The notes: generated by a model not told the origin, from the sequence alone. Counted from the first letter of the stretch, positions 4,991 to 8,727 are shown. The stretch is DNA of 64,000 nt from Chloroflexota bacterium (GCA_005880575.1 VBIZ01000104.1:3735-67734); one strand, 5' to 3'. Translations and numbers: made by a program.

Positions 4991-5224
4991 CCGGCCAGAG
5001 GTGCGGTCTCAAGCAGTAGCGCCGCGGAGGAACGAGCTTCCGCCAGATGCGGTGCGAACGGTGGGACTGCCGAAGTCAGAGGTCCGTCTCGGGATCTCGG
5101 GCTGGTCCGCTTTCCGGAAGGAGACGGACTGTCGCGACGGGGGAAACTCCGCCGCGAAGCGCTGCCGTGTGACCAGGGTCTTCACGAGAGGCTCGGTGGC
5201 ACGTCGCGCACCGGGCTTTTTGTT
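4991..5224 (+). promoter_or_regulatory. Candidate lysine riboswitch (L-box) with an intrinsic terminator expression platform
   Basis: Conserved L-box blocks in order: AGAGGUGCG, UCAAGCAGUAGCGCC, GGAGGAACG, GGGACUGCCGAAG, GGCUGGUCC, GACUGUCGCG. A GC hairpin (GCUCGGUG...CACCGGGC) plus a U5 run lies 45 nt before the GTG start of the next CDS. Confidence 0.55.
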
Positions 5225-5268
5225 ACAGAAAGGCCGGTGGCCGCCTCGCGTGTGCGTGAGGAGGACCG

Positions 5269-6399
5269 GTGCCGATCGAGCGATTCGCGATCATCGACTC
5301 GACCCTCCGCGAGGGGGAGCAGTTCTCGAACGCGCATTTCACGACGGCGGACAAGGTCGCCGTCGCCAGGCTCCTCGACGCGTTCGGGGTTGAGTACATC
5401 GAGCTCACCTCGCCGGTGGCGTCGCCGCAGTCGTTCGAGGACTGCCGGACGATCGCCGCCCTGCCCCTCCGGGCGAAGGTGCTGACCCACGTGCGGTGCC
5501 ACATGGACGACGCGCGCGTGGCGGTGGAGACGTGCGTCGACGGCATCGACATCCTCTTTGGCACGTCCTCGATCCTGCGCGAGTTCAGCCACGGGAAGAG
5601 CGTCGACGAGATCATCGAAGACGCGGGCGAGGTCATCACCTTCATCCGCGATCACGGCAAGGAGGTCCGCTTCTCGAGCGAGGACAGCTTCCGGTCGACC
5701 GAGGGCGATCTCCTCAAGGTCTACACGGCCGTGAGCCGGATGGGGGTGAACCGCGTCGGAGTGGCCGACACCGTCGGCATCGCGACCCCGCGCCAGTGCT
5801 ATGCCCTCGCCGTCGAGCTCCGCCACCACGTTCAGTGCGACATCGAGTTTCACGGCCACAACGACACGGGTTGCGCGATTGCCAACAGCTACGCCATCCT
5901 CGAGGGCGGTGCGACGCACATCGACACAAGCGTGCTCGGTATCGGAGAGCGCAACGGGATCACACCCCTGGGCGGGTTCGTCGCGCGGATGTACGCCGAC
6001 GATCCGGCGGCGATCCGCAAGAAGTACGACCTCCCGAAGCTCCGGGACCTCGACGAGCTCGTGGCGTCCCTCGTCGGGATCGAGATTCCGTACAACAACT
6101 TCGTGACCGGCAAGTACGCCTTCCACCACAAGGCGGGCATGCATACGAAGGCGATCTACCTCAACCCGAACAGCTACGAGATCCTCGATCCGGCAGACTT
6201 CGGGCTCGAGCGGACGATCAACGTCGCGCACCGCCTCACCGGGAAGCACGCGATCGACCATCGCGCGAAGGAGCTCGGCCTCGAGTTCGGAGAGGACGAG
6301 CTGAAGCTGATCACCAAGAAGATCAAAACGCTCGCCGATGCCGGTCCACTCTCGATGGACCAGCTCGATTCGCTCCTTCGGGAGTGGGTCGTTGCCTAA
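5269..6399 (+). CDS. Homocitrate synthase / 2-isopropylmalate synthase family enzyme (short form, no C-terminal regulatory domain)
   Basis: HMGL-like TIM-barrel motifs ([14 protein letters not shown]). Length of 376 aa is typical of AAA-pathway homocitrate synthase. Start is GTG with a GAGGAGGA ribosome-binding site. Confidence 0.8.
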
Positions 6400-7759
6400 G
6401 ACCCTCGCCGAGAAGATCCTGTCACGGGTCGCCGCGCGCGACGCAAAGGTCGGCGACCTCGTCATCGTGCCGGTATCGCGCGTCATGGTGCACGACTCGG
6501 TCGTCGACGCGGTCATCGCGGGTCTGCGCGACCTCGGGAAAGAGCGCGTCTGGGACACGACGAAGGTCGCTGTGTTCGTCGACCACGCCGCGCCTGCCCC
6601 GACGCCGGTCGTCGCGGACTCGCATCGCGTCCTGCGCGAGTGGGTGCGGACACAGGGCATCGCGACCTTCTACGACGCGGGGGAAGGCGTGTGCCACCAG
6701 ATCATGGTGGAGGAGGGCTACTGCGAGCCGGGCACCGTGATCGTCGGCAGCGACTCGCACTCGAATTCGTACGGCGCCGTCGGTGCCTTCGGCGCGGGCA
6801 TGGGCGCGACCGATATCGCGGTCGCGCTCGCGCTCGGCCGCACCTGGCTGCGCGTGCCGGAGTCGATCAAGGTGACCTTCACCGGGCGGCCGCGCAAGGG
6901 GGTCACTATGAAGGACGCAATCATGCGCGTCGTCCGCGAGATCGGTACCGACGGCGCGCGCTACGCGTGCGTCGAGTTCCACGGCGCGGGCTCGCTGCCG
7001 CAGGGGGATCGCATCACGCTCGCGGGGATGACGACGGAAATGGGCGCCAAGGCGGGGATCGTCGTCGCGACGCCCGAGGCGCCGGATTGGCTCTTCCCCG
7101 ACCACGGTGCCGCGTACGCGAACGAGGTGACGGTCGATCTCTCGACGCTCGAGCCGCAGATCGCCGTACCGCCTCGCGTCGACCAGGTGGTGGACGTTTC
7201 GGAGGCCGTGGGCCAGCCGGTCGACGTTGTCTTCCTCGGCTCCTGCACGAACGGTCGCCTCGTGGACATGCGGCAGGCGGCGGCGGTGCTTCGCGGGCGG
7301 CGCATCTCGCCCGAGGTGCGTCTCGAGGTGGTGCCGTCGTCGCGGCGGCAGTTCGAAGACGCGATGGCGGACGGGACGCTGCTTTCGCTCTCGGCCGCCG
7401 GCGCGGTGATCGGCAGCTCGGGCTGCGGTCCGTGCCTCGGCCGCACCGGCGGTGTGCTGGCGGGGCAGGAGGTCTGCCTTTCGACCGCGAACCGGAACTA
7501 CCGCGGGCGAATGGGCTCGGCCGACGCGTCGATCTTCATCGGGTCGCCGTACGTCGCCGCGGTGGCCGCGCTCACCGGCGTCATCGACGACCCGCGCCCG
7601 TACCTCGAAGCGACCGACGCGGAGTTCGACGACCTTGTCGCGCGGCGGCGGGCGGAACGCGCCGGCCGCGGTGCGGCCTCGGTGCGCTCGGGCGATCGCG
7701 CCCGGGAGCTCATGGTCGCGGCGGCGCGCAGCGGGGTCGCCGCGGAGATCGACGATTGA
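6392..7759 (+). CDS. leuC: Homoaconitase / 3-isopropylmalate dehydratase large subunit
   Basis: Aconitase-family motifs (GVCHQI, GSDSHS, CGPCLG). Probable TTG start overlaps the upstream stop. Carries a roughly 40-aa Arg/Ala-rich C-terminal tail. Confidence 0.8.
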
Positions 7760-7768
7760 GAGAGACGA

Positions 7769-8263
7769 TTGAGTAGGGCCTGGGTTTTCGGAGATGACCT
7801 CGACACGGACCAGATCGTCCCCGGCCGATACGCGCCGTTCATGGTCGGCCAGGACAAATTCCACATCTACGCGTTCTGCGACGCGCGTCCGGGTTTCGCC
7901 AAGGAGGTCCGGCCCGGCGACGTGCTCGTCGGCGGGGAGAACTTCGGATGCGGAAGCTCGCGCGAGTACGCGGTCGCGGCTCTGGCGAAGCATGGGATCG
8001 GCGGGATCGTGGCGAAGAGCTTTGCGCGAATCTTCTTTCGCAACTGCATCAACCTGGGGATCCCCGTGCTCGAATCCGAAGACGCCGTTACCGTGGTGCG
8101 CGATGGCGACGCCGTGATGCTCGATCTCGCGGCGGGACTCCTTCGCGCTCCAGGCGGTGACGCGCGCCTCCGTCCGCTCGCACCGTTCGCCCAGGAGATC
8201 CTCGCGGCCGGCGGGGTTGTCGCCTATCTGCGCGAGCACGGAGACTTTCCTTCGGTGGAATGA
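7769..8263 (+). CDS. leuD: Homoaconitase / 3-isopropylmalate dehydratase small subunit (short archaeal-type)
   Basis: 164 aa, with the aconitase swivel-domain GCGSSREYA motif. Confidence 0.8.
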
Positions 8264-8727
8264 GCAGCCAGCCGATCGAGATCGTCGTACTCGCACCGCA
8301 GCGCGCCGTCACGATCCGGAGGACGGTTCCGCAAGCGGGCCTCGGCGCTTTCTTCATGGAGATCTTTCCGAAGCTCCGCGGGGCGATCCGCGCGCAGGGC
8401 GCGACGCCGGCCGGTCCACGCTTCGCGCGTTATTACAACGGCGACCCCGCGGCGTTCGACACCGAGGCGGGCATTCCGTTCACCGGGTCGTTCATGGTGA
8501 CGGGCGATGAGATTCGCGTCACCAAGCTTCCCGCCGGCCGCGCCGCGAAGACCCTGCACATCGGCCCGTACCACACCCTGTCGCAGGAATACCGGCGGCT
8601 TGAGAAGTGGCTCGCCGAAGAAGGGCACCGCCCCGCCGAGGGCCCATGGGAGTCGTATCTCGACGATGAGACGAAGACGCCCGAGAAGCATCTGCGCACC
8701 GAGGTGTACTGGCCGCTCGTGCGGTGA
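8260..8727 (+). CDS. GyrI-like small-molecule-binding domain protein
   Basis: ATGA overlap with the leuD stop. Fold signature of AraC effector-binding / GyrI-like proteins. Confidence 0.55.

What the first reader, a model, noticed from the sequence alone, without database searches (positions are those of the whole stretch)
4991..8727. Candidate lysine riboswitch controlling an alpha-aminoadipate-type (homocitrate synthase / homoaconitase) operon plus a GyrI-like ligand-binding gene
The 5' leader shows the conserved L-box blocks in the correct order and ends in a strong terminator hairpin plus U-run 45 nt before the first gene. The operon encodes a 376-aa homocitrate-synthase-like enzyme lacking the LeuA regulatory domain, a LeuC-like large subunit and a short archaeal-type LeuD small subunit. 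These are the first steps of AAA-pathway lysine synthesis as in Thermus/Deinococcus. The last gene (GyrI-like, ATGA-coupled to leuD) is unexpected in this pathway. Established knowledge: lysine riboswitches normally govern DAP-pathway genes, lysC or transporters, and the Thermus AAA cluster uses leader-peptide attenuation. A riboswitch on an AAA-type module in a Gram-positive-like genome would be an unusual regulatory solution.
Basis: partly seen in the sequence, partly recalled or inferred. Interest (0 to 1): 0.7.

Follow-up and report, generated by a model that had tools for sequence, protein, structure and literature searches.

The report
Lysine riboswitch controlling aminoadipate-pathway genes
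A standard lysine-sensing RNA switch sits in front of the genes for the first steps of the alternative (aminoadipate) route to lysine in an uncultured soil Chloroflexota lineage; both parts are well known, but I found no earlier description of this pairing, and a sister lineage controls the same genes with a lysine-rich leader peptide instead.

Summary
Window 4987-5172 (+) is a full-length lysine riboswitch (Rfam RF00168, 89.4 bits against a threshold of 30, E 4e-22). A terminator hairpin and U-run follow at 5189-5224. The P1 3' strand can instead pair with the terminator's 5' arm, which makes this a lysine-OFF transcription attenuator.

Downstream are four coupled genes:
- homocitrate synthase (above the TIGR02146 equivalog cutoff; 61% identical to Thermus HCS);
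- the split homoaconitase-type large and small subunits;
- a GyrI-like gene.

The organism is Chloroflexota, class Ca. Limnocylindria, not a Gram-positive. The riboswitch-hcs-hacA-hacB unit is present in 67 of 68 species-level Limnocylindria loci, and 38 of its 53 base pairs show compensatory changes. The GyrI-like gene occurs in only about 22 of about 51 informative loci, so it is an accessory.

In Caldilineaceae the orthologous HCS (65-67% identity) heads a full aminoadipate cluster (hicdh, lysW, lysX, lysY, lysZ). It has no riboswitch there. It has a conserved NKKSKK leader peptide plus terminator instead.

The later pathway genes of Limnocylindria were not located. No paper I found links this riboswitch to the aminoadipate pathway. 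Verdict: a real, canonical riboswitch with a previously unreported target pathway, of moderate interest.

The parts
4935..4964 (+). Promoter-like site: TTTACA (4935-4940), 18-nt spacer, TAAACT (4959-4964)
   Evidence: Consensus scan found 1 site where 0.2 were expected. A TAnnnT -10-like hexamer sits at the same distance (about 23-30 nt) upstream of the aptamer in all Limnocylindria clades examined. The transcription start is inferred, not shown.
4973..4986 (+). Conserved leader block ACAACTTCATACGC directly 5' of the aptamer; role unknown
   Evidence: Nearly invariant (CAACT[TG][CA]ATA[CT]CGC-like) in 28 diverse loci, although the aptamer helices vary in those same loci.
4987..5172 (+). Lysine riboswitch aptamer (L-box, RF00168): five-helix junction, with P1 = 4987-4998 pairing with 5162-5173
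   Evidence: Rfam 89.4 bits, E 3.8e-22, full model. Custom covariance model finds it in 67 other loci. 91.3% of cells are paired and 38 of 53 pairs show double changes, against about 36% paired in slid controls.
5159..5209 (+). Predicted antiterminator: the P1 3' strand and linker (5159-5182) pair with the terminator 5' arm and loop (5188-5209)
   Evidence: Constrained folds: -146.9 kcal/mol with the aptamer enforced and -147.7 kcal/mol with the P1 5' strand blocked. This is a prediction only.
5189..5224 (+). Intrinsic terminator: stem 5190-5200/5206-5217, then U-run TTTTTGTT
   Evidence: Hairpin -18.0 kcal/mol. 64 of 68 homologous leaders have a hairpin (-12.7 to -26.9 kcal/mol) directly followed by a T-rich tract, and the stem sequence differs between clades. 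RNAalifold gives a consensus hairpin.
5258..5265 (+). Shine-Dalgarno GAGGAGGA for hcs; predicted to lie in a small hairpin (5239-5250/5255-5267) in both folds
   Evidence: Sequence and folds. This hairpin is conserved only in the window's closest relatives.
5269..6399 (+). hcs: homocitrate synthase, 376 aa, GTG start
   Evidence: TIGR02146 LysS_fung_arch 470.8 bits, above the 413.55 cutoff. Domains PF00682 plus PF22617. 495 bits and 61% identity over 370 residues to T. thermophilus HCS 3A9I/2ZTJ, colinear end to end, with Arg12, Glu13 and His72 conserved.
6392..7759 (+). hacA: homoaconitase/isopropylmalate-isomerase family large subunit, 455 aa, TTG start overlapping the hcs stop
   Evidence: NF001614 484.6 bits (cutoff 385); TIGR01343 hacA_fam 470.5 bits (cutoff 385.7). 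Best PDB match is the M. jannaschii homoaconitase large subunit 4KP2, 318 bits. Gene start.
7769..8263 (+). hacB: small subunit, 164 aa, TTG start
   Evidence: NF010629 homoaconitate hydratase small subunit 214.9 bits, just below its 229 cutoff; TIGR02087 LEUD_arch 172.1 bits (cutoff 108.95). Best PDB match is P. horikoshii LeuD 1V7L. The substrate loop [10 protein letters not shown] is invariant in Limnocylindria.
8260..8727 (+). GyrI-like small-molecule-binding protein, 155 aa, ATGA overlap with hacB; an accessory member of the operon
   Evidence: PF06445 62 bits. PDB relatives are CtR107 and stand-alone AraC effector-binding-domain proteins, 76-88 bits. It is present directly after hacB in about 22 of about 51 informative loci.

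Best explanation
This is a canonical lysine riboswitch working as a lysine-OFF transcriptional attenuator for the operon hcs-hacA-hacB(-gyrI-like). The operon encodes the committed first steps of alpha-aminoadipate (AAA) lysine biosynthesis in a Ca. Limnocylindria (Chloroflexota) bacterium.

Transcription starts about 15 nt upstream of the aptamer. When lysine is plentiful it binds the five-way junction and locks helix P1 (4987-4998/5162-5173). The downstream hairpin (5190-5217) and its U-run then form, and RNA polymerase terminates before hcs. When lysine is scarce, the free P1 3' strand pairs with the terminator's 5' arm (5159-5182/5188-5209). The terminator cannot form and the operon is transcribed.

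Homocitrate synthase condenses acetyl-CoA with 2-oxoglutarate, and HacAB isomerises the product towards homoisocitrate.

What is shown: the RNA family assignment, its conservation and covariation, the gene families, the operon structure and the phyletic pattern.
What is inferred: lysine binding, the OFF logic, termination as the regulated step, and the enzymes' substrates.
For: RNA.
- RF00168 at 89.4 bits over the full model.
- The same RNA lies directly upstream of hcs in 67 of 68 species-level Limnocylindria loci and in 3 metagenome contigs.
- 91.3% of cells are paired and 38 of 53 pairs carry compensatory changes. No shuffle out of 500 reached the observed values, and slid controls gave 32-41% paired.

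Expression platform.
- Hairpin plus T-tract in 64 of 68 leaders.
- The terminator and antiterminator folds are nearly isoenergetic and share the P1 3' strand.

Enzymes.
- The HCS equivalog model is passed, while the LeuA, CimA and NifV models fail.
- 61% identity to Thermus HCS, with Arg12, Glu13 and His72 kept.
- No LeuA regulatory domain.
- HacA passes hacA_fam.

Operon.
- The reading frames overlap or abut: an 8-nt overlap, a 9-nt gap and ATGA.
- hcs-hacA-hacB synteny is invariant.

Pathway context.
- The next-closest HCS orthologues (Caldilineaceae, 65-67% identity) head complete clusters hcs-hacA-hacB-hicdh-lysW-lysX-lysY-lysZ.
- Those clusters are preceded by a Lys-codon leader peptide plus terminator. 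The orthologous operon is therefore lysine-regulated by an independent mechanism.
Against: - No hicdh, lysN or lysWXZYJK genes were found in the 64-kb window or within 8 kb of hcs in any of the 68 Limnocylindria loci. Attempts to find them elsewhere failed. A complete AAA pathway in this organism is therefore not demonstrated.
- HacB scores just under the homoaconitase equivalog cutoff (214.9 against 229).
- The HacB substrate loop (YAPF) matches neither the methanogen homoaconitase motif (YLRT, from memory) nor the isopropylmalate-isomerase motif (YLVY). The isomerase could be dual-specific or could also serve leucine synthesis.
- Four of 68 leaders lack a clear U-tract.
- The window's SD lies in a hairpin in both predicted folds, so a translational or Rho-dependent component cannot be excluded.
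- No binding or termination experiment exists.
Confidence: 0.8

Rival explanations
1. The genes are the organism's leucine (LeuA/LeuCD) or citramalate (CimA) chain-elongation genes, and the upstream RNA is incidental.
For: The small subunit is closest in the PDB to proteins deposited as LeuD (1V7L, 3VBA) and is below the homoaconitase equivalog cutoff. No leuB or hicdh gene is in the operon.
Against: - The synthase passes the HCS equivalog (470.8 against 413.55). Every LeuA or CimA model scores 30-60% of its cutoff.
- It lacks the LeuA C-terminal regulatory domain.
- It is 61% identical to Thermus HCS, against 139 bits for the best LeuA.
- A lysine sensor is conserved in front of it in 67 of 68 species.
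- Its orthologues sit in lysW/lysX clusters.
Confidence: 0.03
2. The riboswitch is real, but the regulated step is mainly translation initiation or Rho-dependent termination, not intrinsic termination.
For: - Four of 68 leaders (L016, L024, L027, L050) have no clear U-tract after the hairpin.
- In many clades the tract is interrupted (TTCTTT).
- The window's SD is predicted to be paired.
- E. coli lysC shows that lysine riboswitches can use translation or Rho (PMC12360218).
Against: - 64 of 68 leaders carry a strong GC-rich hairpin directly followed by a T-rich tract.
- The antiterminator uses the P1 3' strand, as in classic L-box attenuators.
- The SD hairpin forms in both predicted states, so it is not ligand-dependent in the model, and it is confined to the closest relatives.
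Confidence: 0.12
3. The operon makes 2-oxoadipate or aminoadipate for a purpose other than lysine (for example a secondary metabolite or cofactor), and lysine sensing is cross-regulation.
For: Late AAA genes were not found near hcs in any Limnocylindria locus. LysW/LysX-type systems are also used in secondary metabolism, as in the NRPS-linked cluster L084.
Against: - The unit is class-wide and sits among housekeeping genes (rpsF-ssb-rpsR, ileS, fabF/G, priA, def-fmt), not in a biosynthetic gene cluster.
- The HCS keeps His72. From memory (Okada et al. 2010), this residue is involved in lysine feedback inhibition in Thermus.
- The orthologous Caldilineaceae operon is a complete lysine cluster under Lys-codon attenuation.
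Confidence: 0.05

Closest known systems
Lysine riboswitch (L-box / LYS element, RF00168), e.g. B. subtilis lysC and the Thermotoga maritima asd-dap-lysCA operon
   Same: Same RNA family by covariance-model score, with the same five-helix junction and conserved core. The same OFF logic is predicted, with a terminator and an antiterminator that share the P1 3' strand. It also controls lysine supply.
   Different: Its target is the AAA pathway (hcs, hacA, hacB), not DAP-pathway genes, lysC or transporters. The host is a high-GC Chloroflexota class. Surveys list only DAP genes and transporters as targets (PMC5584792; PMC3766115). They found no lysine riboswitch in any of the 5 Chloroflexi or in any Deinococcus-Thermus genome analysed.
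Thermus thermophilus AAA lysine cluster under leader-peptide attenuation (Tsubouchi et al. 2005, from memory; the paper is not in the held library)
   Same: The first enzymes are the same: HCS is 61% identical and colinear, and the homoaconitase is split. The logic is also the same, with premature termination in the leader when lysine is plentiful.
   Different: The sensor is an RNA aptamer that binds lysine directly, not ribosome stalling at Lys codons. The window's leader has no Lys-containing short ORF. Only the first three pathway genes are in the regulated operon.
Caldilineaceae (Chloroflexota) hcs clusters found here, L069-L080
   Same: HCS is orthologous (65-67% identity) and followed by hacA and hacB. 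A terminator lies in the leader.
   Different: These loci have no riboswitch. They carry a 16-44 aa leader ORF with the NKKSKK motif and a conserved CCGGCCATCCAGACGGATnGGCCGG-T6-9 terminator. The cluster continues with hicdh-lysW-lysX-lysY-lysZ. HacA and HacB are only 38-43% identical to the window's.
Stand-alone GyrI-like proteins (PF06445; CtR107, PDB 2KCU/5KAX/3E0H)
   Same: Same single-domain architecture of about 155-166 aa, matching at 76-88 bits.
   Different: Here the gene is translationally coupled to hacB under a lysine riboswitch. No ligand or activity can be assigned, and the gene is absent from more than half of the related operons.

Membership tests
Lysine riboswitch (RF00168) | Covariance-model score above the curated gathering score over the whole model | tested here: met
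   89.4 bits against 30, model positions 1-182 of 182, E 3.8e-22.
Lysine riboswitch (RF00168) | Five helices (P1-P5) around a junction, supported by compensatory changes | tested here: met
   In 68 sequences, 91.3% of cells are paired and 38 of 53 pairs have double changes. Slid controls give 32-41% paired. P1 is mostly invariant.
Lysine riboswitch (RF00168) | Conserved junction nucleotides (AGAGG..GC, GCCGAAG, CUGG, CUGUC, G(A/G)AGCGCU) | tested here: met
   All blocks are present in order in the cmscan alignment and are at least 90-97% conserved in the 68-sequence alignment.
Lysine riboswitch (RF00168) | Selective binding of L-lysine | not testable with these tools
   This needs in-line probing, ITC or a structure.
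Lysine riboswitch (RF00168) | Expression platform whose alternative pairing involves the P1 3' strand | tested here: met
   The predicted terminator (5190-5217 plus U-run) and antiterminator (5159-5209) are nearly isoenergetic. A hairpin plus T-tract is present in 64 of 68 leaders. This is prediction only.
Homocitrate synthase (TIGR02146, LysS fungal/archaeal/Thermus type) | Score above the equivalog cutoff, and sister-family models (LeuA, CimA, NifV) below theirs | tested here: met
   470.8 against 413.55. NifV scores 241 against 463, leuA_bact 208 against 599, and citramalate synthase 154 against 450.
Homocitrate synthase (TIGR02146, LysS fungal/archaeal/Thermus type) | TIM-barrel HMGL-like domain plus the HCS post-barrel domain, with no LeuA C-terminal regulatory domain | tested here: met
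   PF00682 (residues 6-265) plus PF22617 (residues 279-359) only; total 376 aa.
Homocitrate synthase (TIGR02146, LysS fungal/archaeal/Thermus type) | 2-oxoglutarate and lysine-site residues of Thermus HCS (Arg12, Glu13, His72; roles recalled from Okada et al. 2010) | tested here: met
   LREGEQF and the TH-x-x-C motif align identically to 3A9I.
Homoaconitase (HacA/HacB) | Large subunit passes the homoaconitase-family model | tested here: met
   TIGR01343 hacA_fam scores 470.5 against 385.7. This subfamily also holds archaeal isopropylmalate isomerases. The methanogen equivalog NF040615 scores 397 against 550 and is not met.
Homoaconitase (HacA/HacB) | Small subunit passes the homoaconitase small-subunit equivalog | tested here: not met
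   NF010629 scores 214.9 against a cutoff of 229. It is the best-scoring model and aligns over its full length, but falls just below.
Homoaconitase (HacA/HacB) | Substrate-recognition loop of the small subunit (YLRT in methanogen homoaconitase against YLVY in isopropylmalate isomerase; from memory, Drevland 2007 / Jeyakanthan 2010) | tested here: inconclusive
   The window has [10 protein letters not shown], invariant in Limnocylindria. Caldilineaceae HacB, which sits in full AAA clusters, has PGKYTYT. Neither matches the methanogen motifs.
LysW-mediated AAA lysine pathway (Thermus type) | hicdh, lysN, lysW, lysX, lysZ, lysY, lysJ and lysK present in the genome | tested here: inconclusive
   They are absent from the 64-kb window and from within 8 kb of hcs in 68 Limnocylindria loci. 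They are present next to the orthologous hcs in Caldilineaceae.
LysW-mediated AAA lysine pathway (Thermus type) | Absence of a DAP pathway for lysine | not testable with these tools
   This needs whole Limnocylindria genomes.
Leader-peptide (Lys-codon) attenuation of AAA genes (Thermus type) | Short leader ORF with a run of Lys codons upstream of hcs | tested here: not met
   The only short ORF in 4892-5271 has no Lys. In contrast, 12 of 12 Caldilineaceae loci have an NKKSKK-type leader ORF.
GyrI-like domain proteins (PF06445) | Full-length match to the domain model above the gathering score | tested here: met
   62 bits against 26, residues 5-153 on profile positions 2-154 of 155.

The most novel reading that the evidence does not exclude
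This may be the first described case of a riboswitch governing the alpha-aminoadipate route to lysine. It would also be a clean natural example of regulatory turnover. Within one phylum, orthologous hcs operons sense lysine through two unrelated attenuators: a Lys-codon leader peptide in Caldilineaceae (as in Thermus) and a lysine aptamer in the whole class Limnocylindria. Only the committed first three steps are placed under the RNA. A further possibility is that the translationally coupled GyrI-like protein binds a pathway-related small molecule.
Probability: 0.55. Interest if true: 0.55.

Novelty: new member of a known kind. Interest (0 to 1): 0.42.

Why it matters
- It extends the known regulon of the lysine riboswitch from DAP-pathway genes and transporters to the non-homologous AAA pathway. 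The aptamer was recruited to whichever route makes lysine.
- With the Caldilineaceae leader peptides, it gives a comparative system for asking how one attenuation device replaces another at the same operon.
- It provides an annotation marker: an L-box upstream of a 'LeuA-like' gene indicates homocitrate synthase and lysine prototrophy through the AAA pathway. This applies to an abundant, uncultured soil and freshwater Chloroflexota class.
- It supplies about 70 natural high-GC L-box variants with terminator platforms.
- It does not change the understanding of how the riboswitch itself works.

Tried and rejected
1. Looked for extra pathway genes fused to the operon in other Limnocylindria. The genes that follow hacB in 10 cases are unrelated: a sigma/anti-sigma pair, unknowns and a glycosylhydrolase-like protein.

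2. Hunted for Limnocylindria lysW/lysX and related genes.
- tblastn of the Caldilineaceae HICDH, LysW, LysX, LysY and LysZ against the window and all loci hit only Caldilineaceae.
- LysX homologue searches, a representative search and cluster look-ups did not reach Limnocylindria. They led to Caldilineaceae; to Thermomicrobiales (L210, a mixed arg/lys LysW cluster); to two unidentified roughly 61% GC lineages with lysWXYZJ-hcs-fused hac-lysK (L088, L209); and to an NRPS-linked carrier-protein cluster (L084).
- None of these has an L-box, and none is Limnocylindria.

3. Scanned metagenome contigs with CCAGAGGNGCGGN{50,80}GCCGAAG, hoping to find the riboswitch in other gene contexts. Of 80 loci, only 3 were real riboswitches, and all 3 were hcs operons. 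The pattern was too close to the hcs-type sequence to find paralogues.

4. Amino-acid composition as a proxy for high-GC LysX candidates was not discriminating.

5. Literature searches found no paper linking a lysine riboswitch with homocitrate synthase, aminoadipate, Chloroflexi or Limnocylindria. Rodionov et al. 2003 and the Thermus attenuation paper are not in the held library.

6. Considered and rejected that the riboswitch serves the divergent response-regulator gene (4313-4891, minus strand). The RNA is on the + strand and reads into hcs.

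
Full report
**1. The observation**

An Rfam scan of the whole 64-kb window gives one riboswitch, RF00168 (Lysine), at 4987-5172 on the + strand. It scores 89.4 bits against a gathering score of 30, with E 3.8e-22, and aligns to the entire 182-position model. 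All conserved L-box blocks are in order: AGAGGUGC, GCCGAAG, GCUGG, CUGUCG and GAAGCGCUGCCG.

A sigma-70-like site, TTTACA-18-TAAACT (4935-4964), lies 23 nt upstream. Downstream is a GC-rich hairpin, 5190-5200 pairing with 5206-5217, with a free energy of -18 kcal/mol for 5189-5218. It runs into TTTTTGTT (5217-5224), 44-45 nt before the GTG of the first gene.

Four reading frames follow:
- 5269-6399;
- 6392-7759, with a TTG start inside the stop region of the first gene. This is the start used by gene callers on identical contigs;
- 7769-8263;
- 8260-8727, with an ATGA overlap.

A convergent gene begins 1 nt after the last stop, so the transcription unit has four genes.

**2. What the genes are**

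*Synthase (376 aa).*
- It passes NCBIfam's homocitrate synthase equivalog TIGR02146 (470.8 bits; cutoff 413.55).
- NifV, LeuA and citramalate synthase models reach only a third to a half of their cutoffs.
- It has the HMGL-like barrel plus the HCS post-barrel domain and no LeuA regulatory domain.
- Against solved structures it matches Thermus thermophilus HCS (3A9I, 2ZTJ) end to end at 495 bits and S. pombe HCS at 484 bits. The best isopropylmalate synthase reaches 139 bits.
- Identity to the Thermus enzyme is 61% over 370 aligned residues.
- Arg12, Glu13 and His72 are conserved. From memory of Okada et al. 2010, these are substrate and lysine-feedback residues.

*Large subunit.* It passes the homoaconitase-family model TIGR01343. 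Its best PDB match is the M. jannaschii homoaconitase large subunit.

*Small subunit.*
- Its best model is the homoaconitase small subunit NF010629, over the full length, but at 214.9 bits it is just under the 229 cutoff.
- In the PDB it is closest to P. horikoshii LeuD.
- Its substrate loop, [10 protein letters not shown], is invariant in the lineage. It matches neither methanogen motif that I recall.
- The isomerase's specificity is therefore inferred from context, and a dual lysine/leucine role cannot be excluded.

*Last gene.* It is a stand-alone GyrI-like domain protein (PF06445, 62 bits). It is related to CtR107-type proteins of unknown physiological role.

**3. Organism and conservation**

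A scan of one genome per species with the synthase returned 68 loci at 82-97% identity. Nearly all are labelled Ca. Limnocylindria or Chloroflexota MAGs. Twelve Caldilineaceae loci followed at 65-67% identity. The window is 67% GC.

Rfam found the riboswitch in 4 of 4 Limnocylindria loci tested and in 0 of 4 Caldilineaceae loci. A covariance model built from five aptamers found it directly upstream of hcs in 67 of the 68 Limnocylindria loci. The one exception lacks the 5' end of the gene. It found the riboswitch in none of the 12 Caldilineaceae loci.

On the 68-sequence alignment:
- 91.3% of pair cells are standard pairs;
- 38 of 53 pairs show changes on both sides;
- no shuffle out of 500 reaches any observed measure;
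- sliding the partners by 1-3 columns drops pairing to 32-41%.

The RNA is therefore a selected structure, not a chance match.

Synteny is invariant for hcs-hacA-hacB. The GyrI-like gene follows hacB in only about 22 of about 51 loci with enough downstream sequence. Elsewhere hacB is followed by the same convergent neighbour or by unrelated genes. It is an accessory passenger in two subclades.

**4. Mechanism**

With the aptamer enforced, the leader folds into P1 (4987-4998/5162-5173) plus the terminator, at -146.9 kcal/mol. With the P1 5' strand blocked, the P1 3' strand and linker (5159-5182) pair with the terminator's 5' arm and loop (5188-5209). The released 3' arm and U-run form a harmless hairpin with 5226-5238. 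This fold has -147.7 kcal/mol.

This is the classic L-box OFF design: lysine stabilises P1, the terminator forms and transcription stops.

Across the family, 64 of 68 leaders have a hairpin of -12.7 to -26.9 kcal/mol directly followed by a T-rich tract. The stem sequences differ between clades, for example GGCTCGGTGGC.., GGCTGGTGCGC.. and GATCAGTGCGC... Within the window's clade the stem is conserved in sequence. In a second clade the terminator 3' arm (GCGCTGCCGGGC) almost repeats the P1 3' strand (GCGCTGCCGTG), as expected for two competitors for one partner.

Four leaders lack a clear U-tract, and the window's SD is predicted to be paired in both states. A translational or Rho-dependent contribution therefore remains possible. 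All of this section is prediction.

**5. Pathway context**

In Caldilineaceae the orthologous hcs heads a full Thermus-type cluster: hacA, hacB, a homoisocitrate dehydrogenase-like gene, lysW (TIGR01206), lysX (TIGR02144), argC/lysY and [LysW]-aminoadipate kinase. This ties the HCS clade to lysine synthesis.

These loci have no riboswitch. All 12 carry a short leader ORF with the conserved Lys-rich motif NKKSKK (variants LKKSKC, NKKSKR, DKKSKR, NKQSKK). A conserved hairpin, CCGGCCATCCAGACGGATnGGCCGG, and 6-9 T follow it. This is the type of attenuator reported for Thermus (from memory). The window's leader has no such ORF.

Two lineages of one phylum therefore regulate orthologous operons with different lysine sensors.

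Other AAA clusters I reached also lack an L-box:
- two unidentified lineages with lysWXYZJ-hcs-fused hac-lysK;
- a Thermomicrobiales arg/lys LysW cluster.

**6. What remains open**

No late AAA genes, homoisocitrate dehydrogenase or DAP genes are present in the window or within 8 kb of hcs in any Limnocylindria locus. My attempts to reach them through LysX homologues and a metagenome pattern scan failed. I therefore could not show that the organism completes the AAA pathway, whether its later genes are also under a riboswitch, or whether separate leuCD genes exist.

**7. Comparison with what is known, and novelty**

The RNA is an ordinary member of RF00168 with an ordinary expression platform. 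The unusual part is its target.

Full-text searches found no paper linking a lysine riboswitch to homocitrate synthase or the aminoadipate pathway. A dedicated survey of lysine riboswitch targets lists DAP genes and transporters only (PMC5584792). The RegPrecise-based survey lists no lysine riboswitch in any of its five Chloroflexi genomes or in any of the Deinococcus-Thermus genomes it analysed (PMC3766115, Additional file 1).

Absence from this library is not proof that nobody has noted the association. It also follows the usual logic that a lysine sensor represses lysine synthesis. I therefore rate it a new member of a known kind, of moderate interest. The comparative contrast between riboswitch and leader peptide is its most useful aspect.

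Noticed in passing
L069-L080 (Caldilineaceae), e.g. L073 7821-7895 (leader ORF) and 7930-7960 (terminator); hcs ATG at 8001: All 12 loci have a short leader ORF with a conserved Lys-rich motif (NKKSKK and variants). A conserved hairpin and T6-9 run follow it upstream of hcs, which heads a full hcs-hacA-hacB-hicdh-lysW-lysX-lysY-lysZ cluster. This looks like a Thermus-type lysine leader-peptide attenuator in Chloroflexota.
   Followed up: partly
window 4973-4986: The block ACAACTTCATACGC immediately 5' of the aptamer is almost invariant across all Limnocylindria clades, although the aptamer helices vary. Its role is unexplained; it could be initial transcribed sequence, a P1 extension or a protein site.
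   Followed up: no
window 4313-4891 (-): The divergent neighbour is a 192-aa response-regulator receiver domain. Its C-terminal stretch matches an MshE-related c-di-GMP-binding motif (NF053729, 51.6 bits against a cutoff of 38). It is conserved next to the riboswitch only in the window's subclade.
   Followed up: no
window 16727-20169 (-): A three-gene 2-oxoacid:ferredoxin oxidoreductase. The best models are the oxalate oxidoreductase alpha, beta and delta subunits, all below their cutoffs, so the substrate is unassigned.
   Followed up: no
window 11722-11808 (+): tRNA-Leu (anticodon TAA), the only tRNA in the window.
   Followed up: yes
window 32992-33966 (+): A branched-chain amino acid aminotransferase (IlvE; NF005146 383.8 bits against a cutoff of 279). 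It is the only other amino-acid biosynthesis gene seen in the window and is not obviously linked to the lysine operon.
   Followed up: no
window 5239-5267: A small hairpin (CCUCGCG-UGUG-CGUGAGG region) covers part of the hcs Shine-Dalgarno in both predicted riboswitch states. It is conserved only in the closest relatives.
   Followed up: partly
L016, L024, L027, L050 (leaders between the aptamer and hcs): These four Limnocylindria leaders have the aptamer and a hairpin but no clear T-tract. Their expression platform may differ from the other 64.
   Followed up: no
L036/L034/L032 downstream of hacB (e.g. L036 11037-12038): In one subclade a conserved gene of about 333-340 aa, with no NCBIfam match, follows hacB on the same strand, where other clades have the GyrI-like gene or nothing.
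   Followed up: partly
L084-L087 (e.g. L084 9832-13927): A LysW-like carrier gene with lysX/Y/Z/K homologues is embedded among transketolase-like, aminotransferase, phosphodiesterase-family, MbtH and NRPS genes. This appears to be an amino-group-carrier-protein secondary-metabolite cluster, unrelated to the finding.
   Followed up: no
L210 4697-15209 (Thermomicrobiales MAG): A mixed arginine/lysine LysW cluster with two OTCase genes, lysW, lysK, two tandem LysX/ArgX ligases, a methyltransferase, lysY, lysZ and lysJ. No Rfam family was found in the locus.
   Followed up: partly
L047 38-1348: A CRISPR array (RF01330 repeats) lies about 6 kb upstream of the riboswitch in one Limnocylindria MAG.
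   Followed up: no
L002, L024, L037, L056: Contigs with hcs operons 83-96% identical to the Limnocylindria type are filed under Bathyarchaeia, Saccharimonadales and Dormiibacterota MAGs. These are most likely binning errors in the public records.
   Followed up: no
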